64,000 bases of DNA from Amoebophrya sp. A120 (taxonomy: Eukaryota; Protista; Dinoflagellata). Where the stretch lies: positions 1 to 64,000 of the forward strand of contig CAJINV010000009.1 in NCBI GenBank assembly GCA_905178155.1, in the 5' to 3' direction. Positions 7,982 through 59,500 of the stretch are shown here, in pieces. Position 1 is the first letter of the stretch. Every line of letters begins with the position of its first letter. The notes under the pieces are model-generated. The model was not told where the DNA came from and did not search any database. It saw nothing but the letters and a program-made list of their open reading frames with translations. The translations under genes and the position numbers were made by a program.

Positions 7982-10900
7982 ATGGTACAGGAGGCCGCCG
8001 CCAAGCAGGAACAGTCTACTCAAGAAGTGGAAATCGAACTGCCGACGCTGACGAGCGGAGGCGGTCCGGCGGCGCCCCCCGCGGCCGCGAGTGCCAGCGG
8101 CAAAGCCACGGCGAGTAATATCGCTGGCGCCGCTCCGGTTGCCGCGGCCGACGTTGCAGTTGATGTTGCTGACGGCGGAGAACGGGATCCTGGGCGTACT
8201 TCATCTTCTAATGAGCTGCGACAAACCAACACCTCCAAAACCAAGGCGAAGGCCGCGGACCAAGACGCCGGTAGAAGATCGCAGGACGTCGGCGAGACAG
8301 GTCAAGGGGCTGCTGGAACAGCAGGAGATGCGGAGCCTTCGGACGGTAAAGCCAAGCCGCTCACACCGGAGCAAGTCGCGATGCAAACGGACGCTGCGAA
8401 GCGCGGTTTCATCGTGAAGATCTTGATTCTCGCCTGCTTTGTGGACACCTTCACCATGGTTTTGTTCATGCCGGCAATCAACATCCTGACGCAGAACGCC
8501 GAGGGCGGCCCCATCGAGGCTTACGCCGGCGCTCTTTCCGCCGCGGCGTCCGCGGTTCCGCCGAACGACCGCGGCGCGCGCGAAGCGGTGTGGGAGGCCC
8601 AGGGCATGGCTGACCTCGGCCTGTCCGACGAGTTCAAGGAGCTGTTTTTCACTTACGACGTCGCGGTGTTCAACACACTTCCGGGTTTGAAAGCGTTGGC
8701 GTTTGAGAAACTCGGCATGCCGAAGGCGTTTGACGCGGACGACGTGCCATTTAAGTTTTCGGCATCGTCAAATTTTCTCGCCGTGGTGATCGCGGTGACG
8801 AGCGCGGTTGGCCAGGCCGCGTGGGGTAACATTAGCGACAACTACGGCCGGATGCCCGCCCTCCACGCCGCGCACCTCGGCGCGTTCGCCGCGTTTGCGT
8901 TGATGTATCTCTCGGGCGTGTCCGGGGGCAGCTACTGGGGCTTCGCGGCTGGCCTAGCGCTGAAGGGGTTCTCGAATAGCACGCTGACGGTTGTGAACGG
9001 GTACATCCGGGACATCATGTCGGACGAGGAGGCAGGCCCAGGCGTGGCTGGAGACTTTGATGGGCGTGAACTTCCTCGGTGGTGCTACCGCGGGTCTGGT
9101 CTTGATGCCGTTTGTAGAGGGGCGGGGCGAGAATGTTTGGCGTGACCTGGGTCGCGTTCGGGAGCGTTGCGGTTTGCTACGCCCTTTTGTTGCTGTACGT
9201 GAAGGAACCCAAGAAGAAAAAACATGCCGACGAGTATCACGAGCTGCTCTCGGTGGAGGAAGAAAAGGATGCTGTTCTTACACCGGCCGGTTTACTAGCA
9301 ACTGAGGATGCAAGTAAGAGCACCGCCTTGGCGGTCAAAGCCGGTTCGCCAGAAACGGATGAGTCGAAGGACGCCACCAAGGGAAGCTCAGAAATTCCCG
9401 CTGCACCAGCGGCCAAAATAGAACCGAAGAACAAGATGTCGGACTTGCAACGAAAGATCCTCTGGATCACGATCGTTGGCTGCTCGTTCGATTCCGCCGG
9501 CGACGAGGGGACACGCATTGCGCGCGGCACGGTTCTGCAAAATGTCTGGCCCGCCACCAATGACATCATGTTTCAGAACGTCCTCCTCTTGTCCCTGATC
9601 GTCATCATCTGCCTCTCCATGGCCATCACCGGTATCGGCAGGGCGAAGGTCGGTCTCGGCGCGACGGCCGCCCTCGGCGCGGCCGCGACGTTGGGGACCC
9701 AACTCTGTTTGAACAAGGCCATCATCCACCATAAGAATTACACCACGTTTTTGGCGGTGTGGTATTTCGGGAAGCTGTTCGGGATCTGCAGCTCGTTGGC
9801 GGCATTCTTCATTGTGAACGACTACTCGCCGAAAGACCAGATCGGTACGTGGAGCGGGCGGCTCCAGCTGGCAATGGGCGTGATGGAGGCGATCTCGATG
9901 TCAAAAGGAAAAATCCCCCCTCCCCATATCGGAAACGAAATTTGTGATGCTGGATTTGAGTACACAAATCAGATTTGTCTTGCTGAAGAGGACTGCAGGC
10001 CCACATCAAGCCTGAGTAGAGAGGTTTTGGCCTAGGCGCTTAGCATGAGAAACGTCTGCGCTGTAGGCCAAACAGCATCACAAACCGCCTGCATAATGCG
10101 GCGGAGCCTGTGGAATTGCCTTCTTTCAAGACAGAGATCATTTGCGGTCGCAAATCAGCATTGCAAATTTTCTGCGACGTACCTTTTCGACATGGGGAGG
10201 GGGGATTTTTCCCCGGGATACTCGACCATGACCATCGCAAATGTGTACGACGCGGCAAATGAACCAGACGCGGATGGGAAGTTATCGGAAGACGGAAAGT
10301 ATACGGCTTTTTTTTCCTTTTGCTTTTGAACTTTGCATGGTTGGACCACCGAAGTAGACTTGAAAAAGTATGGCAATCGCCAGTGCCGAGCATCCCTGGG
10401 TTTCAGGGTTTTAGGATTTAGGCTTATTTCTCCCCGTTCGTCCACATGATATCGTACTCTACAACTGCGCTGGGCGCCAGTACTAGCACGCAGCACCATT
10501 CTTGGTTTTCGCTTCCTGCCCACGAGAGACATAAAATTTCCGCAGGTACGGTGTGGTCGCCATGTTTGTGACCGCGGGCGTTTCCACCATGGCCGTGTTC
10601 GCGTACGCCCCACTGATCCGCATGGTCCCCGCGCCGTTCCGTGCGGATGCAGAGCGCGAAAAGAAATTCACCTGCAAGTCGGTGGAGGAGTACCTCGCGC
10701 TGTCCGACGGCGACTGGGGGAAGCTGACCTACGAGGAAATCGACTACTACGAGGCGAAGCGCTACGCGAAGGTGCTCGAGCAGGCGGAAAAGGACAAGCT
10801 GGACGTGCAGGAGGCCCTCGCGGGGATTGTGCCACGGCAACCGAAATGGGGCGCCTACCCCGCCAACGGCGCCGCCGACGACGGGGGGGAGATTGCGGCC

Positions 10901-14421: not shown

Positions 14422-15310
14422 AAGCGGCAGCGTCACATATCTTGCATAAGAGTAAGGGAAATAACACGACTAAAAGAATTGCCAAACCAGGATCTGCCCG
14501 TCACACAGCATTCTCGTTTTCAATTACAAGTTACCATAGTTCATTGCATGCCTTTGTTCACAAGTGTTAACATCACACATCCTGCGCATTAAGAGTAGCA
14601 GAAACTTTCATTTTCCCCGCAATCTTCCCGACCGACAGACGAAATTAAGACCCACTACTTTTCTTCTTCCAAGAAAGGATGTCGAGTTCGGAACCCGAAC
14701 AACCTGCCGAAGTGGTAAGATTTTCCTTTCCACAACTCAAATGTGCCTTGTCATCTGACGTACAATATTTTCATTATTTTCCAGGAGAAAAACAAAAAGC
14801 AATATTCGACAAGGACAACCCCGAACAAGATGCTGAATATGTTTTCCCATCTGTAACCCCATACGTAGGACAAAATTTTTTTTCGTGTTTATTGAGCCTC
14901 ATCGTTTTTAATGCCGCAGTGGGTGCGTGTTCAAGGGATTGGGATTCGAAATCGAATTCGATCGAGTGATAACTCATGAGGGATTGTGTTTCGTCGCCTC
15001 GTCGGCAATAGCTTTCTATTCTCTCTTCGTACTTTCCGGTGAAGCAGTGTCGTAATACATGAAGGGTAAGGATTCTACTTTGTTTTCTTCGCGATCTTGT
15101 TCTGGGCTTGGGGTAAGATTGATAACGTGTTGATCTTTATGCTCTTAGCGCTTGCCTTAACCAGAAAGTGTTTGCATGCCGCAGACTCACCAAATCCAAA
15201 ATTGCGATTTAGAAAAACAAAAGTACAACTACGTCGAGAGAACCAACAGCTTACCTTCGCACTACGAAGATTTATACCTAATCGGCAGAGCAGAAGTTCG
15301 AGAAAAAATC

Positions 15311-18903: not shown

Positions 18904-19875
18904 GGAAGTGGCTGTGCTCAGGTCTCACGTAAGATAGTCAGAATTTTGTACCTCGATGAAAATGAAATTGATGCGGACAAGCGAAAGCTGCTGAATCTCG
19001 AAACGAAAACCTCGGCTTCATACGAACTGAATTTTGGTGCTACTGCTGGGACTTGCGTTTTATCCCGTTCGGGGCTGCTGCAAGTAGTGTGCATTATGCA
19101 TTTCAAAAATGTTGAAGTGAACGTAGTAAAATTGAGCTCGTCGTCCCACTGTACTGGTACTGATAAATGTATGATGATTTGTTTTCCTTCTCTTTACCGA
19201 AATAAACTTTTGAACTTCTTTTCCAGTGTACAGACTTGGTTGTTGCAGCAAGCGACGTATCTTCTAAAAGTCTTCTTACAAAAGGAGGGTTTTAGTTGCA
19301 CGCTTGTCCAGAAGTGAGTAGAGCAACTCACGGCAAAGGGGAGGAGCTTCTAAACTCTCAATTTCGTGCTGAAGAAAATATTATTTCGAACTTTCTTTAT
19401 TTTCCTGTACGAGTCGTTGCAAGCCAAGGGAAAACCGACGCCGAAGGAAGATAAGACGCTCGTATGTTTTGTGTCCAGTAGAAGTGCTGTGGTGTGCAGA
19501 ATGAATTCAAATTTATCGCTCAATGCGAGCTGGTGTACGAAGCGGCAAGCTTTTGTCTGGTTGCGGCGTTGGGAACCTCAACGCAATGTAGTTCGGGGAA
19601 GGAGAAGAAAAAGCGTACCTGCTAGAGCGCACGAACTTTTTTCGAGTGTGCACGCAGGAGCGGATCTGAAGAATGAAACATGAAAGAGTCGAAGGCCTTG
19701 CCGGCTCTATGATTGAGGGAGACCAAGTGTAACTGACGAGGGGTGCGAATCTTAACAGCTGCAATCATTTTCGCGATAAAAAAGGAAAGAAAAAATTTTT
19801 AGGATGAAAAAAATTTAAAGCGAATATCTGCCGGGCGCTCTTGCCCGGTAGTAGTTCTCTCTCGCCCGCAGCAGA

Positions 19876-22800
19876 ATGACGATGCGCGGCGTTCTTTCTC
19901 GGAGCAACAAAAGGCTCAACGGCGTTGCCATGCGCCTTCTCTGTTTTCTCGTCGCGGTACATTCTACTTCGGGACACGCCTCGCAACTGCAGAAAGCCCT
20001 ACATGAGGAACATTACCAGCACTCCTCGGAAACGCAGACCGGCCGACTCTTCGGCGAGCTCGCGACTGCTACCCTTCAGAGAGCTTCTTCCCGCGCAACT
20101 GCGACAGTCGAAGGCCGTTATGGTGAACAAATCGACCGCGGGGGCCTCGCAGCGAAGGGAGCAAAGAAGGGGTTTCTCCAAGGCGGGGGAGAAGGTGCAG
20201 CACAGGCGCGCCGAGACCACAGTGGTCCTCCTCTAGCAGAGTATCAAAAGTAAAAATGTCTGGGTCTGGAAACTTGTGATGCTGGGTGGCGTCTCATGAT
20301 GAGGCTACAAATGCTGGCTCAGCATGACAAGTTTCTGAGCGCCTAGGTGTTGCCTATTCTGCATGACAAACTGCGCTTCTGCATCACAAAAAAACGGAGC
20401 GCTTGGGTAACGTGCATGACAGATTTAAGAATCATGCCAGACAAGCATGACAAACATAAACTCTTCCAGACCCAGACATTTTTACATTTGATACAGAGCG
20501 ATCGTTCACCATCCCACTGACAAAGCAGTTATGTCTTCAACGGTCGTTAGCGTACAGAAGGGTGAATTTGTATTGCATGGCTTGCATTTAGTTAAAAGAG
20601 AAGGGCGCTGCGTATTAGACACACGAGCCCAAGCATCCCACGCAGCGTGAAGGGCTGCTCGTCGCGCGGTGGCACTTGCAGCACCGAAAGAAGTGGTCCT
20701 GCGGGGGCCCGCCGGACTGTGTAGGGCATATGTAACCAAAGATGGTGAATCGTGGGGCTCTTGTTCATCTGCGCGTCTGCCTCAGAAGTTCCTCTCCGGA
20801 ATGGTCGGGAGGGAGGGCGACGCCTGAACACAGGGGCACTAGTTCAACACGTGCGCTCTCACGAGTTGTGGCTGTGGCTTGGAATTGGATATCTGGGAGT
20901 AGCCTCGGGTGGAAGGGAAGGCACGACTCGGCTACGGGCACTAGCTTGCTTGGCCTGGTGTGCTCAAAAAAGTGCACAGATAGGCCATGGGAAGGAACGC
21001 AAAGGGGGAAAAAGCGGAGTCCTCTGCTGCCCTAAGCCCGTCTGTATTCTGCTGAAAATGCCGCAAGATTTCACGCGCCTGCCGGAAAAATGCGTCAAAG
21101 CTCTCGGCCGGGTCCTTTCGTCCTTGCCTGCCTTCTTGCTTAGTTGTATGCGCTTCGCAGCCTTTATTTCTGGCGTCTTTGCCGCGGCTGCTGCTGCTGC
21201 AGTGCTCTTCTGCGAGAACGGGGAGGCGCAAAAATCTGCCCAAAGAACGGCGCCCGGGCCATGTCCTCTGGCTGCCCACTGCACAAAAGCCCGCGGCTGC
21301 TGCGCGGTGCAGGGCCTTCTACTTCCCAGAACAGGGCCAAGAGGGACAGGGTCCCGGCGGGCTCATCTGCAATTTGTCATGCACAATTCACTACAAATTC
21401 ACCACTTCTCATGCTAACGCGTGTTAAAGCTCTAACTAAGCGATCGCTCACCATCCCGCTGACAAAGCAGAAGGTCGTGTTATTGTGAGGAAAAATCCCC
21501 CCTCCCCATACCAAACCGGGACACTTCTGAAAATTTGTGATGCAGATTTGAGACCACAAATCGTCGCTGTATTGCATGAAGGCAAGTCTACAGGCTCCGC
21601 CACATTCTACAGGCGGTTTGTCATGCTGTTGCTCCTACAGCGTAGACGTCTGCCATGCTACGCGCCTAGGCCAAAACTTGTCTACTCAGGCCTGATATGG
21701 GCCTGCAGTCCTCGCCAGCGAGACAAATCTGATTTGTGTACTCAAATACAGCATCGGGCGTTTGCCGTCACTATGCTACCCTCAAAAATTTATAAGAGGG
21801 TGGCGCGGCGAGCGGCGGTGTTGGCGAGTGGTTCTGCGGGGAGGTCCTTCCCTGCCTGGGAGGTGCTTTGCCTTCTACTACCTACATCCAGTCACAACGT
21901 AGCTGCTTTCACGGTGGAGTTGCGGCATGGTGTGTTTTGGTCGGGGCGGGCGGCCTCGCTGCGTCCCTTGCTGATGGTCTACGCGGTGTTTTCGGCGACG
22001 CCGTACTCTTCTGCAGGGCGCCACGGTGTCCTTTACTACGTCAGCTGGTCCTTCAAGAGCCCTTTCGTCGTCATCCCAGTGCTGTCGTTGACAGACCTCG
22101 GGCTGATAATCCCGTTGCAGGAGGTTCGGTCCTTGGCGCGTCTTCGCCACCGGCAGGAGTCAGGATGGGTAGATGGGTCTCCTCGTTGTTGCTTGAGCTT
22201 GCTCAGGTCTTCGCTGCTTTCGGTGGTTGGTGGCCGCTCTTGAGTTTCAGGTGTGGGTCGGAGTTCGTTTGCCTCTCGTCAGTTTGGACGGAGTGCTCTC
22301 GTTCAGCCACCCCCCGGCGGTCGACTGTCGGCTATCTGGCTCCCCCAGCTCATGATTGCAGTGTTGGCTGGTGACGACGAGGTTGCGGACAGTTGACTTG
22401 TCATCTGTCTGGTTCGCCTATTTTGCTGCCACGACTGTTTGGTCCCCGGTCCCCTGAGGCGGGGGGATACGGGTTACCTGGTCGGGATGTCGCGCGGAAG
22501 GTGTCTCTCACGTCCCTTGCTCTTCGTACTCGCCGCTGAGTACAGTCGAGCACCTTGGTTGATCGCCACACTGTTTCATAGTGCTGAAACGACCCGGCTT
22601 TCACTAGGGGGAGCATTCGTACACTTTGTGCCCTCCGGGACTATGCCTCTGCTTCCGTCTAAACTGAGGGGTCCACTTATCCCTCTCGGTATTCGGTCGC
22701 AGAGAAGGGTTGCCGGGGTCTCCCTCGCATCGGTTCTCGATGTCGGGTGTGAGTTTGTAACTGCGGGGGCAGTGGTTGGCTTAGGTTTGCGGAGTACATC

Positions 22801-25576
22801 TGAAAAGAGGCTCCCATTCCTTCTTCCAGGTAGCGATCCTAGATCGCAGCCACGCGGAGCCACCCCCGTATTTCACCCCCAGGGGGTTGTGGACCTGGCA
22901 AAACCGATGAGTTCGGGCTGCTGACTGTTCCACCTCTTCCGAGTGCGATCATGTTACGCCTCACGCCTCAAATACAGCATCACAAATTTCGTTTTCGATA
23001 TGGGGAGGGGGGATTTTTCCTTTTGATACGTGTATGAGACGCACTACGCAACTCAAGGTATGGCAATTCAAAACGATCAGTTTTGCATTTTGCGACCCCA
23101 AAACAACGCTGTATTATTGGGGTTTTGTAATGCGAATCTGCGATCCGTCTTCTCCGCCGGTCAGATTGTCTCCTGCTTTGAAGGTGTCAATTAGATATGA
23201 TATGAAAAAAGGTCCTGACTTGAGCTAGCTACTTTAGGCATGAAGGAGGGTTAATAGTTTGCAGGTAAGTTAGATAGTAAAGCAACTGCATATTGGTGAA
23301 CGCTAGAAAGGGAGCCCATGTTGCAGACGTGGAAATCGTTGAACTTGAGCAGGAATTTGCCACTGTACAGGTCGCGGCGCCATCTCGTTTCCGAGGACGA
23401 CTGCAAAGGGAGGCCTGAAAGTGGTCCAAAATGATCATCGTTCCACGAGCTAACGGGATCGCTTTTGCAAAATTTACACAGTCGCGACTCAAGAGGTATT
23501 TTTTAACGTCTAAAAGTGGCCTCATTTGGACCATATCTTGAGTTGTATCTAAGTACAAGCCTGCGACGCATCAAAAGGACCCTTATTTGGGACGTCTCCC
23601 GGAGAGGTCTGAATTGCGGCCCTCTTGCTCTATTTGCGCGGTATGCTCAATTCTACAAAAAAGCCAAGGCTTTTCAGCTAAGCACGGCGGTATACTGGTG
23701 CTCAGCATTCCATCTTTTCCGCCGTTAGCTCGGTACTCCTGCAAAGCACGAGCTAACTCTGGACTTGAGCGATTCCTGTGCTGTCAAGGGGTGCCCTACC
23801 TCTGGAGACGAACCAGACAGGCCTGCAACACTGATCCAAGCCGGCCTCTTTTATGATAGCACTTCAGCAGTCATGTCATTAGCTAGCTAGTTCAAATCAG
23901 GACCTTTTTTCATATCATAAAATGCATAAACCAAATCCGGCAACTGGACTTACCTTCGAACGCCGCCACTTCTGCGTCGCGAAACAGGATGGAAAATGGA
24001 TGATAAAGCTGGAGCTGCTATATAGATTGTTGAGACCGATTTTTTTGAATTGCCATACCTTGAATTGCGTAGTACATTTCATATCGTGTCTGCGTCGAAA
24101 AAAGAGCGATCGTTGACCATCCCACTGACAAAGCAGAAGGTCGTTTCTTTGTCGAAAAAAAAGCGAAATAATTTTCAACCGGGAAGACTTCTCCTGCAAC
24201 AGCGGCGAGAAAGGCATAGCGAGGATGGCCGCCGGTCGTCTTGGTCCGAAGAATATTATAACACGAAGAAACACAAGACCGCCTACTTCGGACAAATTTA
24301 CCTGGGTACCCCACCCCAAGAGTTCTCTGTTGTATTCGACACGGGGAGTGGAAACCTGATGGTCCCGGCAAAGGACTGCCACAGCAGCCCGTGTTTCTCG
24401 CATCGCCGCTATGATTCAAGACAGTCCGCCACCGCGAAAGAGATCAACTTCGACGGCACGAGCGTCTCGTCGGCCAGAAATAGCGACTCTTTTATCTTGC
24501 GAAACTACGCCGCAGAAGATGCAGATGCTGTTTTTATGGCAAAAGAAAGTAAAAATAGCCACCCCGAAGCAGTAGATCGCGACGTGCTCACGGTGACCTT
24601 TGGGACGGGTGAGATCAGTGGTGTGTTTGTGCGCGACGAGATCTGCTTGACATCGAAGGGAGCAGTCGAAGATAGAAATAATTTTTGCAGCTTTGGCAAC
24701 TTCGTCACAGCGGTCAAGGAGACCAATGAGCCGTTTGAGGACTTTGCCTTCGACGGGGTTCTGGGACTCTCTTTGCCAGAAATGAGCCAGGGTAGTGATT
24801 TCAACTTCCTGAACACGATGCTGTCGTCGGGTGGCACAAGAAATAGCGGCATGGTGTTCTCGGTGTTTCTATCGGACGATTCCGAGGCCGAACAATCGGA
24901 GATTACCTTCGGCAGTTACAAACCCGAGCACATCGCGAGCAGCGAAAAATCGCTTTTTTGGGTGCCCGTGTCGCGGCCCACGGGGTATTGGCAGGTCGAA
25001 ATGCGAGACATTGCAATAGATAGCCGAAGGCAGAACCTATGCTCGGCGTCGTCGCCATTTCTGGCAAACATACAGCTGGGCGCCGTGAACTCGAAGAACT
25101 TGCGGAGTTTCTCCGACGACCGTCACAGTTATGAGGAAGCTGCACTTGTTCCAACTACTACTTCCACTTGTCAGGTGGCGCTCGACACGGGTACGAGCCA
25201 GCTCGCGGGGCCGAGCGCGGTCGTGGAGGAGTTGCGACGGAGGCTGGACGTGAAACCCGACTGCAGCAACTACGACTCCCTGCCGACGCTGGGCTTCGTG
25301 CTTGGGGAAAGGATCCTCAACTTGGATCCGGAAGACTATGTTGAGCGGACAGGAGAAGAAAGCGGAAGTACGGTGTCATGCGATCTGTCCTTGATGACGA
25401 TCGACGTGCCCCCGCCAAACGGGCCTTTGTTTATCTTTGGGGACCCTTTCTTGCGGAAGTTCTACACAGTGTACGACAGCAACGAGCGGCGGATCGGATT
25501 CGCGGCGGCCAAGCACGCCGCGGTATCGGAAGAAAAGGCACAACGGAGCGTCATCGTGCTGCCGGAGGTGCTTTGA
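19876..25576 (+). CDS. Pepsin-family (A1) aspartic protease; pro-region split by nested introners
   Basis: FDTGSGNL and LDTGTSQL catalytic motifs, FDGVLGL, IFGDPFLRKFY. Signal-like MRLLCFLVAV in exon 1. Inferred exons 19876-20241, 20499-20528, 21441-21479 and 24089-25576 join in frame; the 20528/21441 join is the least certain. Confidence 0.8.
20242..20493. mobile_element. Introner family B (252 bp)
   Basis: TIR tatcaaaagtaaaaatgtctgggtctggaa / ttccagacccagacatttttacatttgata; TSD cagag at 20237-20241 and 20494-20498. Confidence 0.92.
20530..21434. mobile_element. Degenerate TIR element (about 0.9 kb) in a protease intron
   Basis: Left tatgtcttcaacggtcgttagcgtacagaagggtgaatttgta pairs imperfectly with right tacaaattcaccacttctcatgctaacgcgtgttaaagctcta. 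No TSD visible. Confidence 0.55.
21481..23028. mobile_element. Introner family A interrupted by a 1.2-kb insertion
   Basis: Family A TIRs; TSD cgtgt at 21476-21480 and 23029-23033. Length is 322 bp after removing the nested insert and one copy of its duplication. Confidence 0.9.
21756..22966. mobile_element. 1211-bp insertion with 15-bp target-site duplication (possibly retrotransposed)
   Basis: ctcaaatacagcatc at 21741-21755 and 22967-22981. The other family A copies carry the equivalent site only once. Confidence 0.8.
23033..24083. mobile_element. Introner family G carrying a nested TIR element
   Basis: TIR tatgagacgcactacgcaactcaaggtatggcaattcaaaa / ttttgaattgccataccttgaattgcgtagtacatttcata; TSD tcgtg at 21475-21479 and 24084-24088. 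Confidence 0.85.
23196..23919. mobile_element. TIR element H (724 bp) nested in G
   Basis: tatgatatgaaaaaaggtcctgacttgagctagcta pairs with tagctagttcaaatcaggaccttttttcatatcata. No matching TSD. Confidence 0.75.
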
Positions 25577-28664: not shown

Positions 28665-31600
28665 ATGACGTCCCCACGACTACAACCACATTCCCTCCGT
28701 GCCGCCGCGGCCTTCTTTCTCCTCCACCTCGGAGCTACTAGGTTCGTGGCTGCGCAAGGGACGTCCACGGTCCGACTCAGCTTCGTATGTCCCTACAGAG
28801 AGGAGCCGGAATGTTGTCCGGTGTGGGCGGGGATCGCCGCGATCGCGGCCAAGCACGTGAACGAGCGGAACGGGTACGTGATCCCGGAAGTCGCCACCAG
28901 CTTCCGGGCCACCCTCTCGCCCGGCACTGCTATGAAATGTAAAAGTGTCTGGGTCTGGAAGAATGCAAGTTTGTCATGCTTGTCTGGCACGACTCGGGAA
29001 TCTGTGTTGCATAGGCACGAAAAAGCCTTCTTACCTGTCATGCAAAAACGCAGTTTGCCATGCGGAATACGTAAGGCATGGCAGCCAAAAAATTTGTCAT
29101 GCATAGCTGCGTATTGCAGTGCGTCTATCATTCATTTTTAGCATCACAAGTTTCCAGACCCAGACACTTTTACATTTGATAACTGCGAACGTGACGCAAG
29201 TGGCCCTGGCCGCTCAGGACCTGTCGCACTACCAGCCCCCGGCGAGCACGAGCTCCGCGACCATCACGTCTAACACGCCCCCGCTCACCGGGCTGACGCG
29301 CAACACACTGCTACCCGAGCTGTCCGCGGCTTACAACCTGGTGAAGGCGAGCCAAACCTCAGCCAACCCGGCGCACGGGTACCTGACCGCGTGGAGCGAC
29401 GACGACGTGTCAAACGCGCACAGCTACTTTTTAGAGAACGACGGTGCGAACGTGCCGCTCATCGCGGTCGGGGAAAAGCAGACCAGCGCGCGGTACATCA
29501 CCGACACCTACCCGAAGACGACGACCAACGCCTACCCGAACTTGTTCGGCATGCACCCGAACGACGGGCACGCCATCGAGCAGCTTGCGGAGGTGTTCGT
29601 GAACCAGTTTGGCTGGAGGCACTTCGCGGTGATCACCGAAGCGCCCCTGAGCACGACCTGGAGCCATCCGCTGAAGCAGCGGTTCGAAGATAAGGTGTGG
29701 GAGCTGCTGGGCCCGCTCACGGGGGGCAGCAAGCTGAACCAGGGGAAGCACCAGGGGATCGTCGAGCACCACATAGTGCTTCTAAGGGAGTCCGTCTTCG
29801 TCAGCACCGACGGGTCCGGGACGCTGCGCACGGCCGCGGACCTAGCGACGCTGGACACGTGGGCGGAGACCGTCGCGAACTTGCGGCGCAACACCCCGCG
29901 CGTGGTGATCTACGTCACGCGCGTTGCCGCGCACCTGGAGGCCATGATGACCGCCGCGGAGAGCGCCGGTATGGCGGGCCCGCTGTCCGCCGACTGGACG
30001 TGGGTGGTGCCCTCGGTGCTGGCCCTGGGCGGCAAGGGGCTGGTGAACAAGCGCCGCGCGTGGTTCACGGGGTACGCCAACGGCGTGTGGAGCATCATGG
30101 AGGACAACGCGGAGCACTCGTTTGGCACCGGGCCGCCCCAGCCAGGCTCGTCGGGGGCGAAGCTGCACTGGTTGCTGGAACAGGAGTGGAAGCGGGAGAT
30201 GGCGAGCGGCCCCTTGCCCACCGCCGAGCAAGTGCTCGGGCTGGCCGATTCGACCACGCAGAAGCACGGCGGCAGCGCGGCCATGGCAGTAGAGCTGCGG
30301 CAGGCGATCCCCGACCACTGCCAGACCACGGCGCCCTTCGTGTACGACGGGGTGGTCGCCGCCGCGTTCGGGTGGGACCGGTTCGCGAACGACGCGGCGG
30401 TGACCTCCTTCGCGGAGGGTCTTGCCGGTAGCCCCGCGGACCCGCTGAAGTTCACGGGGCTGACGGGACCGGTGAACCAAGTCGGCGAGATTGTGAACAA
30501 CACGGTCACCTCCTGGCCCACCCGCAACCCGGAGGGGCTGCGGTACTCTTTGCTGCGCGCCCAGGAGACCGGGCTGAACAAGCTCACCCCGAACGGGTTC
30601 ACCAACTCGAGCGAGGTCACGGTTGCCGGCGTCACCGCGCAGCTGAGGCCGACGGGCTTCAAAGTGCCGACCTCCTTCGCCGAGGGGGCGTGCTACCGCG
30701 ACAACGTGAGGTGCGGGAGTTTCGGCTTCTGCCAGGACGACGGGACCGGGGTCGGGTATCCGGACGGCCACTGCGTGTGCGAAACCGCGACCTACGTGGG
30801 CCAGCGGTGCGACATCTACACCAGCGTGACGTTCTCGTCCAAGAGCGGCCCGAGAGAGAAGCCGCCGCAGACCGGCGCCTCGTCCTCCCCGGCCGCTAGT
30901 ACCGCGGGCGCCTTCAAGCAGAAGCCCGTAACCCGGGCGCCGACCTTCGCGCGCGTGCAGTGGAGCAATTTCCGCGAGTACGCGGAAACGACGTTCACCG
31001 CGGTGCTGCAGATCGAGTAGGTGTTCCTGGACAAGCGCACGCGGGTATCGGACGGTGGCTATAACACGGAGGCCGTGAACGCCTTAGAGTCCTACGCGAG
31101 CATCAGCGCGGGGTACCTGCTGAGTACAACCGAGGAGCAGATGATCCCGCACGCCAGCATCTGGCTCCCCCGGGGCGCGGGGATGCCGCCCTGCGCGTCC
31201 GTGTCGGAGGGGTCGACCAAGTCGGTGGAGGTCAAGTACCCCTTCGTCTACTGGAGCTACCAGATCGAGGGCAAGGGCTGCACGGTGAGCTCCGAGTGGG
31301 ACTGGTACCCCTTCGACCAGCAGCAGATCGACGTGACCGCGCGGCCGAACGGCGACATCGAGTGGCTGTTCGACTACACCGAGTTCACGTGGCGGATCTA
31401 CGCCCTGTACGGCCCCTGGTCCGCGAAGTTCGGCATCGCCAGCGTCAGCTTCAACACCCACGACGAGGTGAAAGCCGCCCTGCTCGGGATCAAGGCGCTC
31501 AACGAGTCGCACGCGGAAGCCGCGGCGCAGAAGTACCCGGGGATCAGCCAGGCCACGCTGGACAGCAACTGGCAGCGGTCCTGGCCGGTGGTGTCGGCCG

Positions 31601-47366: not shown

Positions 47367-50300
47367 ATGAGCGACCCGGCAACGGCCACCCACGAGCACG
47401 TGGCGACCACGGGCACTCTGCTGCAAGTCGGCGGAGATGCCATCCCCGTTTCCGCGGTGAAGTCAACGGTGAGTAACAAGGCGGGGGTCGTGAAGAAGGC
47501 AAGCGGTATCAAGCACCGCAGCCACACGGGCGGGGCGGCGCGGTTCGAGCGGGACTCCCGAGATTCGGTCGTGTTTGGAGGGGACAAGAAAACGTTCCGA
47601 AAAACGGGGTTCTTCAAGGGCAAGGAGGGCCTCAAGCAGCCTAAGTTCCGGAAAACCGGGTTTGCGCTGCCGATGAAGGAAGTGCTCACCACGAACGAGT
47701 TTTTCGTGGACTACAATGCCGCGAGGGCACAGATTGAGCGGGAAGCTATGCACAGGGGAGTTCCGGGTGAGCAGAGTGGATCAAAGGCTTTATTTGTTCT
47801 TGAGCTGGACCTCTATCGATTCAATTTCAATCTGTGATTCTGGTTGTACTTGAGAAGTTGTCGCTTTAGGGGCAAGGGGATGATTGATTATCGTTCTTCA
47901 GAGTGGTTCTTCGCACTTTTAGACCTGACACTAAACCAAAACCACAGCGTCGTTCACGACCACCCAGAAGAACGCGGGCAAGCAGATTTTTCACTCGAAG
48001 AAGGGTCCGGCCGCGACAGAGGGCGAGTCGTTTTGCAATGCGCTGGAGCGGTCCGCGGAGTTGGCGCCGGACCGCGCGGCGTTGCTGGTGGAGCGACCGC
48101 TTCCGGAGGCGGGAACGCGGGACGAAGCGTATTGAAAGGAAAAATCCCCCCCCCATATTGAAAGCGCGTCCTTCTGAAGATTTGCGATGCATATTTGTGA
48201 CCACAAATCCTGTCTGTCTTGCAAGAGAGCAAAGGCAGAGAGCCCACCGCGTTATGCAGGCGGTTTGTAATGCTGCAAGGCCTACAGGGCAGACGCCTGC
48301 CATGCTAAGCGCCCACCTCTAAGCGCCCCTCTCCAGGCTTTGCATCTGCCTGCAGTCCTCTACTGCAAGACAAATCTGATTTGTGTAGGCAAATCCAGCA
48401 TCACGAATTTCCCTTCTCGATATGGGGAAGGGGGATTTTTCCTTCTGATAAAGCGCTGCCACTGGAGCAGTGGTCGGTGTGGACCTACCAGGAGTACCGG
48501 GACGACGTGTGTCAACTGCAAAATTGTCTGGGTCTGGAAGATTGCAACTTGTCATGCTGTTTTTGGACTCTACAAAAATTTGTATTGCATGACCAGCAAG
48601 AGGGGTGCAATTTGTGCTACATGGACAGGGCATTTGTCATGCGGAAGGTGCATCAAGTTCAGGAAGCCCTCTAAAAGTCTGCGATGCTAGGTCATGCATT
48701 ACAGGCATCATGGGTCATGAGAAAAACAAATCTTGCATTCTTCCAGACCCAGACACTTTTGCATTTGATAACGTGCGGTCGATGGCCATCTCGTTTCTGA
48801 ACGACCTGAAGCCGCTGAAGGACCTGCCGTGCTACCAGAAGCTTTCCGAGTTGGAGCGCGCGAGCTGGCTCGAGAACGACCTGGACCCCACCGTGTGCAT
48901 CTTCGGGTTCAACGCCCCGGAGTGGAGCATCAGCGCCATGGCGGCCATCTACTGCGCGGGGTTGTTCTGCGGCATCTACCCGACGGACACGCAGGAACTA
49001 TCAACTGTAAAAATGTCTGGGTCTGGAAGATTCTGACACTTGTCATGCACGTTTTGAATGAGCCGCGATGTCTGTGATGCATACCCAAGCAATACAAATT
49101 TTTTCAGGGCTTCTTGATCGTTGCCTATTCTGCATGACAAATGCCTTCTCAGTGTAGCAGAAATTGCATTCCCTTTGCTACTCATGCAATACAGATTTTT
49201 TTTGGAATTCAAATGCAGCATGACAAACTTGTATTCTTCCAGACACAGACATTTTTGCATTTGATAGGAACAGGTGCAGTACAAGGTCGACCACAGCTAT
49301 GCAAGAAAAAAACTGTGTAAGTGTAAATCTGTGATGCAGAACATGCAACAGAGTTACAGCTGTCATGCCAGACAGCGATGCAGTCCTCTTTTCATGTGTG
49401 TTTTCCCTTACAAACCACGCATGACAGGTTTTCTCTGTCATGTAGAGCAAATTTGTGATGCTGTCAGCCAAAGAAAGTTACACTAACACAGTTTTTTTCT
49501 TCGATAACAGCAACGCTTCGGTGGTGGTGGTCGACATGACAGAGGGCGAAAAGAAGTACCAGGCCGTCGCGGACTCGCTCGAAAACTGCCCGACAGTGCA
49601 ACTGGTGCTCGTTTGGGGGGAGATGAACCGCGACCAGTTTTTTGGTCCCGGGAAAACGGAAAAGGAGTTCACCCGATCGGACGGCTCCGTCGTGATTGTG
49701 CGTTCCTGGACCGCCCAGCTGCAGCGCGGCCGAGACAACAGCGACGACGACTCCGAACTGATAGACCGCATGGAGTCCATCGACCCCTCGCAGTGCTGCT
49801 GCCTCGTCTACACGTCGGGCACCACTGGGTGGCCCAAGGGCGTCATGTTGTCCCACGACAATCTCAGCTATTCCGGTACTTACGATTCGTTTTGATATTT
49901 ACACTGTATAGAAATTTTGTATATGCAACGTGATACCTTTGGGTTTCCCTTCTCATGAATTGTTTGACAAAGACACTACACACAGAATTGTATGATAATT
50001 ACTACGGAACTTATATATTCGAAAAGCGAATGTGAACCGCCATTGTCAGGTGCTGCGGCTTGCGACCCAGAATACGGGTGGCACCGCACGTATGGCAGCT
50101 GCGGAGAGGAGCGGCTCGTGTCGTACTTGCCCCTCTCCCACATCGCCGGCACTATTTGCGATCTGCTAGCTCCGCTGTACGTGACCGCACTCGGACGGAG
50201 GAACAAGTTAAACCCGAAAGCTGAGGAAGAGGGCGACGTTGGCTACGTCTCGGTGTACTTCGTGCGCCCGTACGACATGAGGGTCGGCACGATGAAGAAT

Positions 50301-53300
50301 CGGATCCTGCTCTGCCGTCCCACGGTGTTCTTCGGGGTTCCTCGCGTGTACGAAAAACTGATGATGGGTGTGCAGCTCGTGCTCGCGAAGAAAACCAAGG
50401 GCTACGTCGGCGGCTGCATCGGCGCGCTCATCAACCGGGCACGCCGGGCGTGCCTGAAAACCTACCGAGCGATGGAGCACGACAACTTGGATTTGATTGC
50501 GGCAGGCGACAAGACTGCTTTGCAGCCGAACTCCTGGAGTTCGTGGTGGGAGAAAATATTGATCTTCAAAATTCGCAAAAACCTTGGCCTGGACCAGACG
50601 CGCATCTTCATGACTGGGGCGGTATAGTAGAGTTTGCTCATAGAAGCGGCATACTTATTACGAACAATTTTTCCTCACGCGGGCTTGAATTTTGTTTTTT
50701 TGGTCTCTGTCATGATTGATCTTCGGTTCGTTGGCGCGATGTCACGGCCTCTGGTTCGGTCGAACAATATTCAAAAAAAAATCTTCCCAGGCTCCGATGC
50801 CCCCCGCGGTGCAAGAGTTTTTTCTTTCTTTCGGTATCCGCGTTTCCGATACGTATGGTATGTCGGAGTCCTGCGCTGCAGTTACTGTTTCGCAGGCGGA
50901 ATCCAGCACCCCTATGCTTCCGGTCGACTTCTACAAAAATCTGTCGGAGCGCAGAGAAAACGCCAAGTGCGGCGTGCTCGGGAAGCCGCAAGCGGGCGCG
51001 GAACTGGCCATTATGACGGAAAAGGCACCGGGCGTGTACTGATTTTTCTTTCGAGAATATAGTGATCCCGAGTGTATCATCAATTTCGGTACCTAGAAGC
51101 AGCACTGCCTCGTGCTGAAGATGAAATGTCTATACTCATAAACTACTCTTTCTGTAGTTCCACTAAAATACACCTTCTCAGCTTCGTCCGCTGCCCGCCG
51201 GCCTCGAACATAGAGAACCCCGAGTTGGACAGTCAGGGCGAGATCTGCTACCGCGGGCGGCACATCATGCTGGGGTACCTGGCGAATCCCCGGTTCGGCG
51301 CGGACCACGTGAGGGAGATCGAGGAGAAAAACCGCGCCACGATTATGACCTGCTCAAACGTTACAATCTCAAACGCTACAATAGAATCTGAGATTTGTCT
51401 TGCATGATCAACATGACAGACTCGGACAGCATTCCACTTTCTGCAATACAAATTTCGCCAGATTGTAGTGCGGATTGGGTGGACTCTAGAACTTGTCATG
51501 CGTAATCCTGTGGGAGTAGGGTAGAGCATGCACTTCTTGCAACACAAGTTCCAGATTCTATTGTAACGTTCGAGATTGTAACACTTGAGCAGGTTATAAC
51601 GATCGACCAGGACGGCTGGCTCCACAGCGGAGACAAGGGCTGCCAGAACTTTGACGGCTTCGTGAAGCTGACGGGGCGGTACAAGGAACTGCTGATCTCT
51701 GCTACTACAGTGAAAAATGCCCCCACCCCCAAAGTCGCACAAACTTGTGATGCGAAGTTTCCAAATGCAAACCTTTTGTCATGCAGATGCATGAAAGAAG
51801 TAGGAATCTTTCTGATGCAGAGTCTAGGCCTGTATCGCATCGCTTGCATGACAAGCGCCACTTTTGTTGGGATCTTTTGCAATACAAATGTTTGCTATTC
51901 ACGATTGGAAATCTGTGATGCTGATAGGTGCAAGAGGGCGAGTGTTTCATTTGGAAAGGTTTGCAATACACATGCTCCCAAGTTCGGGGATGGGGGCACT
52001 TTTCAACTTGATCTCCGCCGGGGGCGAGAACATTGCGCCCGTGCCGATCGAGCAGTCGTTGAAGGCCTTGGTTTATCCAAGAAAAAAAGTGTGTAGGTGT
52101 AACTTTTTTGCAGAACCAGCATCACAGATTTGTTTTGCATGACAGAGAAAACCTGTCATACGTAGCTAGTAAGCGAAAACACGTATAATTAAAATAGCCT
52201 CTGATGCATATCCGGCATGACAAGCGTAACTGTATTGCAGCATCTGCAAGACAAATACACAGTTTTTTTCTTGCATACGGTTCCGGGGGTGTCCAACGTG
52301 GTCATGATCGGGGACAAGCGGCAGTACAACGTGATACTGGTCACCCTGCTCGTCAAGGGCAACACCGGCGAACTGCCCGGAACAAACGAGCTGATGGGTC
52401 CGGCGCTGCAGGTCTCGCCGAACTGCGCAACGACCCTGGACGCCAGGGACGATGCCATCTGGAAGGAAAAAATTGAGTCCGCGATCAAAAAGGTATCTTT
52501 GTGCTTTGGAGATCGTAAATCTTTTTGATTGATGTCAAAGGCGCTGGAGCGGTCGTGCTTCAGCGCATATGTGCTTCGCTTAAGTGCTTCGCTTGGTTGC
52601 TGAAGTGCTTCAAATCGCTTAGGTGCTTCGATCGTGTAAAAAAATGCTTTTATCGCTACAGTGTGTCGCTTAAGTGTTTCGCTTAAGTGTTTCGCTTAAG
52701 TGTTTCGCTTAAGTGTTTCGCTTAAGTGATTCGCTTAAGTATTCAGTGCTTCACTTAAGTGTTTCACCTAAGTGTTTCACCTAAGTGTTTCGCCTAAGTG
52801 TTTCGCCTAAGTGTTTCGCTTAAGTGTTTCGCTTAAGTGTTTCGCTTAAGTATTCCAGTGCTTCGCCTAAGTGTTTCGCCTATGTGTTTCGCTTATGTGT
52901 TTCGCGTAAGCGTTTTGCCTAAGTGTTGCGCTTAAGTGTTTCGCTTTGCTGAGGTGCCTCGCTGCTGAAGTTCCCCTCTTGAGTGGCGCTTCGCTTAAAT
53001 TAGTGGTGCTTCGCTTAAGTAGTGCGCTGCTAAAGTAGTGCGCTGTTTAACTAGTGCGTTGCTTAGGTAGTGCGCTGCTTAAGCAAAGCGCTGCTTAAGT
53101 AGTGCGCTGCTTAAGTAGTGCTTCAGTAGTGCACAGCTTAAGCAGTGGCTCGCTTCAGTAGTGCTTCATCAGTGCGCCGCTTAAGTAGTGCGGTCCTTAG
53201 GCAGTGCCTCGCTTCAGTCGTGCCTCGCTTAAGTAGTGCCTCGCTCAAGTAGTGCCTCGCTTAAGCAGTGCTTCGATTCTTAAGTAGTGCTTCCTCTAAG

Positions 53301-53734
53301 TCGCTTAAGTAGTGCTTCGGTTGAACTTGAACAGTGTTGCGCAGTAACTCGCGCGTCGCATAAGCAGTGCGTCGCTGCGGTCGCAGTGCTTCGCTTCAAG
53401 CTCAAGTGCTTCGCGTATGTCCTCGCTCAGGCGTGTTCAGCTGGAGTGCTTCGCTGAGGCGCGGCGTCTGCTTTTGAGTGCAGTGCCTAAGGGCTTTCCT
53501 CCAATAAATCATTCGCTTGAAGATGAAGTCCTGCAAATGGAATTTGAAATATGTCACCACCTGCAGGTGAATGCCGATAGCGTGGTGTGCGCCAACAACG
53601 CGTGGAAGGTGCAGAAGTTTGCGATTCTCCCGAGGGACTTCTCGGTCGAGACGGGCGAGCTGACCGGAACGATGAAGCTCAAACGGGACGATATTGCGCG
53701 AATCTGGGCAGATGAAATCGAGAAACTGTATTGA
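47367..53734 (+). CDS. Long-chain fatty acyl-CoA synthetase (bubblegum/ACSBG-like), 12 introns
   Basis: [64 protein letters not shown] introns 47767-47947, 49876-50049, 50622-50790, 51036-51181 and 52493-53566, plus seven introners; all joins are in frame. Confidence 0.92.
48130..48450. mobile_element. Introner family A (321 bp)
   Basis: Family A TIRs; TSD aagcg; join TRDEA|LPLEQW. Confidence 0.92.
48510..48770. mobile_element. Introner family B (261 bp)
   Basis: Family B TIRs; TSD acgtg; join YRDDV|RSMAI. Confidence 0.92.
48999..49266. mobile_element. Introner family B (268 bp)
   Basis: Family B TIRs; TSD ggaac; join DTQE|QVQYK. Confidence 0.92.
49298..49506. mobile_element. Introner family C (209 bp)
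   Basis: TIR tatgcaagaaaaaaactgtgt / acacagtttttttcttcgata; TSD acagc; join VDHS|NASVV. Confidence 0.92.
51344..51598. mobile_element. Introner family D (255 bp)
   Basis: TIR of about 48 bp, tatgacctgctcaa...atagaatctg / cagattctat...ttgagcaggttata; TSD acgat; join NRAT|IDQDGW. Confidence 0.92.
51700..52008. mobile_element. Introner family E with eroded termini
   Basis: TIR tgaaaaatgcccccacccc / ggggatgggggcacttttca; direct repeat tgatctc at 51693-51699 and 52009-52015; join LLIS|AGGEN. Confidence 0.8.
52074..52277. mobile_element. Introner family C (204 bp), opposite orientation to the 49298 copy
   Basis: Family C TIRs; imperfect TSD tggtt / cggtt; join ALV|PGVSN. Confidence 0.9.
52571..53420. 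repeat. Intronic minisatellite: 13-mer gcttaagtgtttc grading into a 15-16-mer gcttaagtagtgcgct
   Basis: Visible tandem units inside the GT-AG intron 52493-53566. Confidence 0.9.
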
Positions 53735-56577: not shown

Positions 56578-59500
56578 ATGGACTTCAGTCGCGGAGTAAC
56601 CGGCAGGTCTCGTTCTCCCGGGGGCCGATCGCCTGCTCGTAACGAAGAGAACGCGAATAAAAGCCGGGAATCCACCAGCATTAAGAAGAGAACGCTACGC
56701 CACAAACCCCTTTCGGAGCCAAAGCATCCGCCGTTGTCGAAAGCCGTCACGCCCCCCGTCCGAGCGACGCAAAGTACTAGCTACTGGACGGCAAATTTAA
56801 GATCGAGAGTGTCAGCGTTAAGGGCCTTTCAGGGAGCAGCAGCCTCTTCGCCTGTTGGAAATAACAGGCTTGGTTTGAAAAAGGAGGGAGATGCAGTTCC
56901 CGGTGCTGCGTCTACTGTCGGAGCTGCCGCGGGCAGCACGACTGCAGCGACGGGAGCTTTATTATCGCAGGGAGCGCTGTCCGGGCACTACGTGGACCTA
57001 GTTGCTGCAGCTCTGGCGGGTGAAGCCAGAAAGCCGCCCGTGCCTGAACCGAAAGTGGAAAGAGAGGATGTCGTCGCCCCCGTTGTAGTTCCGAGCATAG
57101 AAGACGCGGCGGCCGTGGACCGTCGTGTGTCGTCTACGTCGAGCATGAATGATGGAGAGGAGAACGTTACCAGCTCGTCGACTTCGTCCAGTGCTAGAAG
57201 TGGAAGAAATGACAATGGGGAAATCAAATCCACAACGTCGAGGATGCAGGAGAACAGCGACACTGAAAAAGAGAGATTTTCTCTAGACTTTTACGGGGGC
57301 GCGAATTCTGGGTTCTCGAAAGAGTTCGCCCGACAGATGAAGCTTTTCGGTTTGAGACTCGGGGAGGACGCCGACGTCGACCAGGACTCTTCATTATTAG
57401 CGAAAAATCCGTATGGCCGCGACAATAGCTTTGACGGCGGAAAAATTCTAGAACTTTTGAACACGCGAGGCACGGTTCTGGTCGAAGCCATCGCGGTATT
57501 CCGGAGCAGTAAACAAGCTGATAACTACGAGGACGACCAGGATTTTGACGAAGTCATTCTTTCGCAGTTGGAATCCGATTTGAGAACCGCTTTTGGAGAT
57601 GCGCTGGACAGGAGGAGCAGTAACAGCACGTCGAAAACTGTCAGGAGAAGAATTTCCCGTACTTTTCGGCGGTTCCCGAAATTGAACAACTTTGACCTTT
57701 CGACCGTCCGTGCTCTCGATTTCATCGACCGCAGTCTGAAAGAGCAGGTCGCGCTGGAACTCGCGGAGTTGCAGAACACGAATTCCGTCGAGAACAATTC
57801 AGAAAGATTTGTCAAGCTTGGCACGCCGGGAAGAGTGGCGGGTTTAGAGCATCAGACAGACGAAAAGCTGCAGAAAATTCTGCAATTGAGAAATTTGCAG
57901 CGCGCCTTGGCAGCGGCAGGCGAAGGTGGGGAGAGGAATACGAATGGTGCGAGCGCTGCACTTCGCGCTCCTAGTGAAATAAAGCGATCCATTCAGCAAA
58001 CGCCAAACAAGAAGATAGCGCATGGTGGCACCAGTCAGAAGCAGGGTTTGAGGGAAACAAACGTGCAGCAGGGAGCTACAACGGTGTCTACCAGTGCGAG
58101 GAAGAGGAACGCGTCACTTTCGCCATTCAAATCTCCCGCGAAAGCAGCTGCCGGAACTGACTCGACAACCAAAAATGTGCCCGACCAAGTGGAAAAAGTT
58201 CTACGTCGCGTTTTAAAAGAACACGAGGCGGAGCAGAACCAGAGACAGACCGAAAAAAGTCTCTTGAATGCACCAGCAGTTTATCAGGGAGAGCCAGGCT
58301 TGAATACGCGGCCTGAATCAGCCCGAGAAACCGCCTCTGCCCCTGTTCCTTTTCCCGACGACGTAGGAAAAGCGGCGGCAAATCGTGGTTCTGGCATTGA
58401 AGATGTCGTAGAAGACTCGCCTCAGACGAAGAACGAAAATAAACTACAGCAGGAAAAACCAGTATTGAACCTCTCCAAGTCGTCTACCGCGGGGGGCGGC
58501 GGATGGGGGCAGAATTGTCCTTTCAAATTTATCCCAGACTGCGGGTCTTGCCTAGATAGCTACCGTGGAAATGGGGACGAGGGAGAGGAAGACAAAAGGA
58601 AGCAGGAGCTTCTGGACAGCGGCTCAGAGCGGGGGCTGGAAGATGGTAGAAATAACAAGAATTCCGCTGCTAAAAACGGATTGGTGTGCTGCAGCTTCCT
58701 CGAGAACAGTGCGATGCTAAGCAATCGAGTGTTCTGTTCCTACGCGACTGGGGTGAAGAACGAGGTGGAGGTGGCTGCCGTGAGCGAGGACCAGGAGATT
58801 TCAAAGAAAGGCGAGGAAGGTGAAGGACCGGATAGCGAGAAGAAAATTGCTAGAGGAAGCAACAAGAACGGTTCTCGTGACGAGAAAGCCCTGGTTCTCT
58901 GCAGTTGGCTATCCCACAGAAAAAAGCTGGCAGGGCATATTTGTAATGCAAAAATAAATACACAGAAAAATCTGTCATGGGCGGCCTCATAGCATGCTAT
59001 TTAGGATATGCAATGCAAATTTTTTTGTCAATTTATTTTTGCATTACAAATATGCCCTGCCGGCTTTTTTCTGTGTGATATTGGCTCGAAAACTACAACC
59101 CCAAGACGCCGTATTCGAACATTTGCTTTTCCTTCGTCAACGGCGAGCAAGAGCAAGAAAAAAACGAAAACGACGAGAAATCCGAGGACAAAATTTTGTA
59201 CGCATCATCCAGCAGCTTTTTCTCGAACAAGAACCAGTCGAAAAACACCGACCTCAGTGAGACGAGCACGAAGAACTTGCTGTTGACCAAGAAAAGTCGT
59301 GGGGTGCAGTCGAACGGCACGCCGAGCGCGTTTACTTTTTTCAGAGAAAAGGAACAAGCTGAAACTGGTCCGCGGGACGATAGTATTCCATTAACGGCGC
59401 GGGGGGCTGAAGCGACTGCGTCCGGTGGGAAAATTTCCGCCGCTGGAGATACTACGCCTGTCGTGGCCGGTGCACTAGTGCGACCTGCGGCGGGTACTAG

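What the first reader, a model, noticed from the sequence alone, without database searches (positions are those of the whole stretch)
9899..59080. Exonic TIR elements with 5-bp TSDs that must be removed precisely without GT-AG signals
Seen: at least 12 elements with TAT...ATA (or TGTC) ends interrupt coding exons of five genes. They are flanked by 5-bp repeats: ctcga, cagag, cgtgt, tcgtg, actgc, aagcg, acgtg, ggaac, acagc, acgat, t/cggtt, ttggc. Deleting element plus one repeat restores the frame and conserved motifs. Sliding the junction through the repeat never gives GT-AG; only ggaac allows GA-AG. Known: non-canonical introner introns with inverted and direct repeats are reported in Amoebophrya genomes, but to my knowledge their removal mechanism is unresolved. 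Inference: a structure-guided excision system acts at RNA or DNA level and discards exactly one TSD copy.
Basis: partly seen in the sequence, partly recalled or inferred. Interest (0 to 1): 0.85.

Follow-up and report, generated by a model that had tools for sequence, protein, structure and literature searches.

The report
Transposon introns spliced without GT-AG
Fourteen small hairpin-ended transposons sit inside five genes and are missing, with one copy of their 5-base duplication, from the RNA-type assemblies wherever these cover them; this matches an intron class already described in the parasite Amoebophrya, whose likely hairpin-guided splicing mechanism is still unproven.

Summary
All 12 listed elements are real (10 strict hits vs 0 in 20 shuffles), and two more were found. 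A DNA-type run keeps the elements in place, so removal is at RNA level. The class is already known: Amoebophrya A120-type introner elements (Farhat 2021, PMC7789003; 5-bp repeats in its Fig. S19). The scan noted similar elements on other DNA (e1-7693921, e1-7695377).

Added here:
- The duplication is exactly 5 bp in 106 of 121 related copies.
- GT-AG is reachable by sliding in 2 of 61.
- Elements are spliced in both orientations.
- Two abutting elements leave together.
- Two drifted sites keep the first bases of the upstream repeat copy.

Best reading: a relaxed spliceosome cuts one base before the TAT end (N-TAT mimics the GTAT donor) and four bases after the far end, aided by end pairing. 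This is inferred. A wobble test went against selection for stem stability. No lariat, circle or direct-RNA data are available.

The parts
9899..10220 (.). E1, TIR element (TGT...ATA), repeat CTCGA, in a predicted membrane-protein gene on +
   Evidence: not covered by an RNA lay
20242..20493 (.). E2, TIR element, repeat CAGAG, aspartic-protease gene
   Evidence: RNA-type joint 20236>20494, 257 nt, 5 nt ambiguous; host Pfam PF00026
20527..21440 (.). Degenerate TIRs about 20530-21434; repeat drifted; 912 nt removed with 2 nt of ambiguity (AG..TA, GT..AA or TT..AG)
   Evidence: joint 20526>21439; end alignment
21481..23028 (.). EA, TIR element of the E1/E5 family, repeat CGTGT, inserted one base into the 5' end of EB
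   Evidence: joint 21474>24084 removes EA and EB, 2609 nt
21756..22966 (.). 1.2-kb secondary insert inside EA, flanked by an exact 15-bp duplication (21741-21755 / 22967-22981)
   Evidence: no Pfam hit in 3 of its ORFs
23033..24083 (.). EB, TIR element, repeat TCGTG, with an inner TIR pair 23196-23231 / 23884-23919
28931..29181 (.). E4, TIR element of the E2 family in opposite orientation to E2, repeat ACTGC
   Evidence: joint 28925>29182, 256 nt, in runs X1, X3, X4 (one sample)
48130..48450 (.). E5, TIR element, repeat AAGCG, AMP-binding (acyl-CoA synthetase-like) gene
   Evidence: X2 contig has 59 further letters, which fits removal, but the piece is not shown
48510..48770 (.). E6, TIR element (TGT...ATA), repeat ACGTG
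   Evidence: junction not bridged by a shown RNA contig
48999..49266 (.). E7, TIR element, repeat GGAAC, inverted relative to E6
   Evidence: X2 contig has 27 nt between 48992 and 49507 = E7 and E8 each removed with 5 nt
49298..49506 (.). E8, TIR element, repeat ACAGC
51344..51598 (.). E9, TIR element, repeat ACGAT
   Evidence: X2 contig has 155 nt between 51338 and 52279 = E9, E10, E11 each removed with 5 nt
51703..52013 (.).
52074..52277 (.). E11, TIR element of the E8 family in opposite orientation, repeat TGGTT/CGGTT; RNA keeps the upstream T
   Evidence: X2 piece begins at 52279, not 52278
58910..59080 (.). E12, TIR element, repeat TTGGC, in a frame of at least 2362 codons
   Evidence: not covered by an RNA lay

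Best explanation
These are non-autonomous transposons with paired ends and 5-bp target duplications that are cut out of the RNA together with 5 flanking bases, likely by a relaxed spliceosome that would use the paired ends, not GT-AG, to place its cuts. SHOWN: the elements, their exact 5-bp repeats, their presence in DNA-type and absence from RNA-type contigs, removal in either orientation and over 209-1548 nt, and retention of the first bases of the upstream repeat at two drifted sites. INFERRED: (1) insertion by a DDE transposase making a 5-nt staggered cut (none found here); (2) the two ends pair during transcription and bring the exons together in place of U1, which Farhat 2021 could not find; (3) the 5' cut lies one base before the TAT/TGT/TAC end, so the intron starts N-TA-Y like the genome's GTAY donors with a free first base; the 3' cut lies four bases past the far end; so 1+4 bases of the two repeats leave and one full copy is rebuilt.
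For: RNA level: joints 20236>20494, 20526>21439, 21474>24084 and 28925>29182 in runs that also skip GT-AG introns and leave intergenic bins empty. Contig lengths of 27 and 155 nt fit five more removals, and X5 contigs hold the element-exon borders. Generality: exact 5-bp repeat in 106 of 121 copies; frame restored by element+5 in 39 of 41 copies with independent frame calls on both sides (77 of 104 without thresholds); retention gives a stop in 60 of 61. No linear signal: GT-AG reachable in 2 of 61, and no repeat position stands out. Symmetry: E2/E4 and E8/E11 are opposite-orientation family pairs and all four are removed; orientation 13:12 and 14:19 and balanced within interior clusters (52 of 61 copies); ends fold together in 14 of 14, weakly for E10. 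Register: E11 keeps at least 1 base of the upstream repeat. E3 is cut 1-3 nt before its TAT, and the one-base option gives TT...TAAG, a normal acceptor. Of 9 GT donors inspected, 8 have A at +3. All 9 top A120 boundary pairs in Farhat Table S4 have T at +2.
Against: Wobble test: in host-sense orientation the stems have 28 G-U against 59 A-C pairs (p=0.001; 11 vs 30 elements). Selection for a stable RNA stem predicts the reverse. The variants are shared alleles, so the counts are not independent, and the window's own 13 show no bias (16 vs 17). The one-base register rests on one drifted element; a second parse of E3 also allows a cut exactly at the TIR edge. The first base shows no G preference (A21 G17 C13 T10). 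Table S4 placements may reflect the aligner's choice among equal cuts, and the paper calls the border unknown. No lariat, branch point, circle or trans factor was tested. All RNA evidence is assembled contigs of runs only guessed to be RNA, from 2 samples of 1 study.
Confidence: 0.5

Rival explanations
1. A separate, non-spliceosomal endonuclease/ligase recognises the terminal stem and cuts at fixed distances from it, releasing a circle or linear hairpin, as proposed for euglenid nonconventional introns.
For: No preferred base at any repeat position in 61 copies; orientation independence. Euglena introns use paired motifs with an asymmetric spacer (5'-N3CDG ... CH'GN5-6) and are thought to use non-spliceosomal factors (abstract, discussion); they leave as circles (review passage).
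Against: Element ends read as N-TAT/N-TGT/N-TAC resemble the GTAY/GTGA donors of the same window. The old element E3 can be read as ending in TAAG. Farhat 2021 found 83 of 89 spliceosomal proteins and reports the same repeats in 15% of canonical A120 introns, suggesting a continuum.
Confidence: 0.27
2. Removal is RNA splicing, but the ends are read as sequence by a protein or small RNA (for example a domesticated transposase domain or a U1 substitute) and stem pairing is incidental.
For: A-C exceeds G-U in host-sense stems. 5' ends are somewhat closer to consensus than 3' ends (91 vs 122 mismatches, 29 vs 19 elements, p=0.19). E6 and E7 could pair across their shared exon (26 of 30), yet that exon is kept.
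Against: At least six unrelated end families (E1/E5/EA, E2/E4/E6/E7, E8/E11, E9, E12, EB, plus E3, E10) share little beyond the terminal triplet. A triplet alone cannot specify sites; pairing is the shared feature.
Confidence: 0.16
3. The elements are excised from DNA in some life stage (ciliate IES-like), and transcripts come from empty loci.
For: Transposon anatomy; removal leaves exactly one repeat copy; the life stage of the DNA-type run is unknown.
Against: X5 contigs bridge element-exon borders at the same depth (about 21-30) as exons, and none of the 15 joints shown is an empty site (279 not shown). RNA-type runs hold element sequence, including a piece from inside EB. The cut at E3 does not respect the 5-bp repeat.
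Confidence: 0.04
4. The joints are cDNA artefacts: reverse transcriptase jumps across a hairpin between direct repeats.
For: Hairpin plus direct repeat is the classic substrate (recalled; PMC2923612 seen only as a search listing and abstract start). All RNA data here come from assembled sequencing runs.
Against: Retention breaks every host frame, including seven times in a 954-aa gene with intact AMP-binding motifs. E3 has only 2 nt of junction homology. Joined contigs have exon-level depth while element interiors are near zero.
Confidence: 0.03

Closest known systems
Introner elements (IEs) / non-canonical introns of Amoebophrya sp. A120 (Farhat et al. 2021, PMC7789003)
   Same: TAT start followed by an A-run, terminal inverted repeats, 3-5 nt direct repeats (5 bp in Fig. 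S19), about 240 nt, many families, RNA-seq-validated removal without GT-AG (abstract, sections 11 and 16, passages and supplement passages read).
   Different: No difference in kind. The paper leaves the border unknown and gives variable repeat lengths; here the repeat is 5 bp in 106 of 121 copies and the register is narrowed. The words orientation, nested and template switch occur in no passage on introners in its main text. I did not test that the window comes from that strain.
A120 introner families in Gozashti et al. 2025 (PMC12130899)
   Same: Mostly classed as TIR DNA elements of unknown superfamily; about half of boundaries non-canonical; TSD 5 for three of the 21 rows seen.
   Different: Automated TSD calls range 2-5 and no removal mechanism is given in the passages read; 21 of 58 A120 rows seen, supplements 13-14 not searched.
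Euglenid nonconventional introns (Nomura et al. 2025, PMC12501133; review PMC11282704)
   Same: MITE-like origin, paired ends, repeats at junctions, asymmetric spacing from the stem, unknown machinery.
   Different: CAG/CTG motif and a purine rule at the next exon; neither is seen here. Unrelated lineage.
Fritillaria borealis non-canonical MITE-derived introns
   Same: TIR/TSD-bearing introns removed by a modified U2 spliceosome (review passage).
   Different: Preferred boundaries AG-AC/AG-AT and a fixed exonic TAC; here the target sequence is free.
Ginger2/TDD-4, TDD-5 integrase-type DNA transposons (PMC2836005)
   Same: 5-bp TSD in TDD-4/5; TGT termini, seen at the 5' end of E1 and E6 (passages).
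   Different: Most ends here are TAT, not TGTNR; no transposase was found; Gozashti 2025 notes that A120 family 38 lacks Ginger homology.

Membership tests
Amoebophrya A120-type introner elements | Terminal inverted repeats starting TAT, with an A-run about 10 nt in | tested here: met
   TAT at both ends in 58 of 61 oriented copies; in the window 11 of 14 start TAT, and E9 and EB lack the A-run
Amoebophrya A120-type introner elements | 3-5 nt direct repeat at the exon-intron borders | tested here: met
   exact 5 bp in 106 of 121 copies; 11 of 14 exact in the window counting EB
Amoebophrya A120-type introner elements | Removed from transcripts at non-GT-AG borders | tested here: met
   9 of 14 window elements absent from RNA-type contigs; E1, E6, E12 untested, E5 only length-compatible
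Amoebophrya A120-type introner elements | Repeated family members across the genome | tested here: met
Amoebophrya A120-type introner elements | Host is Amoebophrya | not tested
   no genome held; inferred from the match to the published description only
Spliceosomal (U2-type) intron | GT/GC-AG ends | tested here: not met
   0 of 13 window elements, 2 of 61 related copies
Spliceosomal (U2-type) intron | Lariat via a branch-point adenosine, dependence on U2/U5/U6 | not testable with these tools
   needs lariat sequencing or spliceosome perturbation
Euglenid nonconventional intron | N3-CDG ... CH'G-N5-6 motif and purine at next exon start | tested here: not met
   ends are TAT...ATA; no position-specific purine rule at n=61
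Ginger2/TDD transposon | TGTNR termini | tested here: not met
   TGT at 1 of 122 ends in oriented copies and 2 of 28 in the window
Ginger2/TDD transposon | Gypsy-integrase-like DDE transposase in an autonomous copy | tested here: inconclusive
   no transposase Pfam hit in 8 ORFs inside E3, EA, EB; whole genome not available
Self-splicing group I/II or other Rfam RNA | Match to a curated RNA family | tested here: not met
   0 matches at gathering score in the window

The most novel reading that the evidence does not exclude
The organism has a dedicated second splicing machine, independent of the spliceosome, that removes any TAT...ATA-ended hairpin from RNA with a fixed 5-nt ruler, whatever its family, orientation, length or flanking sequence: a general anti-transposon splicing system that makes coding exons free landing sites.
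Probability: 0.27. Interest if true: 0.85.

Novelty: already known. Interest (0 to 1): 0.4.

Why it matters
How tens of thousands of introns without GT-AG are removed in an organism apparently lacking U1 snRNA is an open question (Farhat 2021; no later mechanism found in searches). This window is ordinary for such a genome but supplies sharp test cases: opposite-orientation pairs that both splice, two abutting elements, and drifted repeats that reveal where the cut falls. If the register is N-TAT with a 4-nt overhang, one modified spliceosome would explain both published strains (nTA at +1 to +3). If not, a new RNA cutting and joining activity is implied.

Tried and rejected
- No whole genome was held, so no search for an autonomous element, transposase or U1 was possible.
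- The look-up of sequencing runs listed no holder on record as RNA; X1-X4 are guessed RNA.
- Which base of E10's mismatched repeat is kept could not be read, because the tables were cut.
- An apparent purine rule at repeat position 2 (28 of 33) vanished at n=61 (41 of 61; similar at positions 3-5) and is rejected. A terminal-G rule is likewise unsupported.
- Six mismatched repeats among the oriented copies did not fix the register.
- The TIR motif had 0 matches in viral contigs. Rfam gave no match.
- The first frame tests used wrong start frames (parts of 40 and 44) and were redone.
- PMC13326754 held none of the terms inverted repeat, hairpin, TSD, MITE or Amoebophrya in its text and was not used.
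Full report
1. Observation. A scan for exact 5-bp repeats directly flanking complementary ends recovered ten elements with T.T...ATA ends; 20 dinucleotide-preserving shuffles gave none, and 0-4 hits without the end rule. They fall into several families by sequence: E1/E5/EA, E2/E4/E6/E7, E8/E11, and singletons. Only removal of element plus 5 nt gives open frames among seven offsets tried.

2. RNA versus DNA. Runs X1-X4 are only guessed to be RNA, but they skip GT-AG introns and leave intergenic bins empty. They show joints 20236>20494 (E2+5), 20526>21439 (E3, 912 nt), 21474>24084 (EA+5 plus EB+5 = 2609 nt) and 28925>29182 (E4+5). One X2 contig of 2215 nt runs through the whole aspartic-protease gene, and the joined frame is open for 640 codons. 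In the AMP-binding gene, X2 contigs have 27 letters between 48992 and 49507 and 155 letters between 51338 and 52279. These equal removal of E7, E8 and of E9, E10, E11 with five bases each, by the exon coordinates. These are sums, but the frame test needs each removal to be exact modulo 3. E5 is only length-compatible; E1, E6 and E12 are untested. Run X5 covers introns and exons evenly and its contigs bridge element-exon borders; 15 of 294 joints were shown and none is an empty site. The RNA evidence comes from 2 samples of 1 study, as contigs.

3. Related copies. Of these, 106 have an exact 5-bp repeat, 10 have one or two mismatches and 5 do not fit. With frames called separately on each side, element+5 restores frame in 39 of 41 confident cases and 77 of 104 overall. 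Of the 116 copies with at most two mismatches, 61 could be oriented; the method called strand and frame right in 162 of 164 selected held-out tests. In these, GT-AG is reachable in 2, GA-AG in 5, AT-AC in 4 and GC-AG in 0 of 61, and no repeat position shows a base rule. Elements lie in both orientations about equally. In the window the opposite-orientation pairs E2/E4 and E8/E11 are all removed.

4. Where the cut falls. With identical repeats the cut cannot be placed. At E11 (TGGTT/CGGTT) the RNA piece starts at 52279, so the first base comes from the upstream copy. At E3 the joint has only 2 nt of ambiguity: the cut is 1-3 nt before TAT at 20530 and resumes 4-6 nt after the matching end at 21434. 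Read this way the cut is inside the repeat. A second parse (element 20529-21435, repeats AGCAG/CTAAG) keeps the 5-nt rule and allows a cut at the TIR edge. Either way at least two upstream repeat bases are kept, if E3 is typical. The one-base option gives TTATG...TAAG; a GT-AG pair one base away (913 nt) is not used. N-TAT, N-TGT and N-TAC resemble the window's GT donors, 8 of 9 of which have A at +3. All nine top A120 boundary pairs in Farhat's Table S4 are NT-, and all nine A25 pairs are TT-; this may be biased by the aligner. EA sits one base inside EB; keeping the first upstream repeat base lets the two leave in either order (inference).

5. Results against the reading. If RNA stem stability were selected, host-sense mismatches should favour G-U. 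They favour A-C, 59 to 28, in both high- and low-confidence strand calls. The window's 13 show no bias. Insertion phase is skewed 32:15:14 (p=0.002); I have no tested explanation. The first intron base under my register has no G preference.

6. Comparison. Farhat et al. 2021 (abstract, sections 11 and 16, passages, supplement passages) describe these elements: TAT-starting inverted repeats, 3-5 nt direct repeats with a 5-bp example, RNA-seq support, missing U1, border unknown. Gozashti et al. 2025 (passages, 21 of 58 supplement rows) class most such families as TIR DNA elements of unknown superfamily. Euglenid and Fritillaria introns are functional analogues (review passages; abstract and discussion). 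TDD-4/5 share the 5-bp duplication, but termini and transposase tests do not support membership. Searches found no later paper on the removal mechanism; the library lacks most subscription journals, and Roy et al. 2023 was seen only as a citation. Earlier scan notes report similar elements in other dinoflagellate genomes; I did not check them.

7. Verdict. The feature is real, RNA-level and already known. The mechanism is open. A relaxed spliceosome guided by paired ends with a 1+4 register is most likely (0.5); a separate stem-guided nuclease/ligase is the main rival (0.27). Interest 0.4.

Noticed in passing
window 31018-31020: A single in-frame TAG splits the E4 host gene into open frames of about 700 and 566 codons; the gene has high RNA-type depth up to 31000, where my lay ended. 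Assembly error, nonsense allele or readthrough.
   Followed up: partly
window 21741-22981: A 1.2-kb GC-rich insert with an exact 15-bp duplication lies inside EA, as a non-LTR retroelement would leave; no Pfam hit. The host transcript still loses the enlarged element.
   Followed up: partly
loci L001-L149: TIR end variants (positions 4, 5, 7, 10, 15) are shared across interior subfamilies and appear at either end, as if ends are exchanged between copies; their host-sense arrangement favours A-C over G-U pairs.
   Followed up: partly
loci L001-L149: Codon phase after the upstream repeat is skewed 32:15:14 in 61 copies (p=0.002).
   Followed up: partly
window 44980-45210: A different inverted-repeat element (CCGC...GCGG ends) with a 5-bp repeat CGAAG, apparently intergenic.
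   Followed up: no
window 52560-53400: 13- and 16-bp satellite arrays inside a predicted 1074-nt GT-AG intron of the AMP-binding gene.
   Followed up: no
window 14950-19430: Tandem duplication of about 2.3 kb holding an intronless gene that looks like the ribonucleotide reductase small subunit (name from recall, not searched).
   Followed up: no
window 1-5170: Tandem 2558-bp repeat with identical copies, GC-rich and A-skewed.
   Followed up: no
window 20494-24161: The protease N-terminus has three copies of an SxTIPLTKQ repeat, and elements E2, E3, EA and EB all lie at or within these repeats.
   Followed up: partly
run X8 on window 48520-49032: Raw RNA reads of 2026 carry the same element ends joined to other flanks but cover no exon here: a related strain or a low share of the organism.
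   Followed up: no
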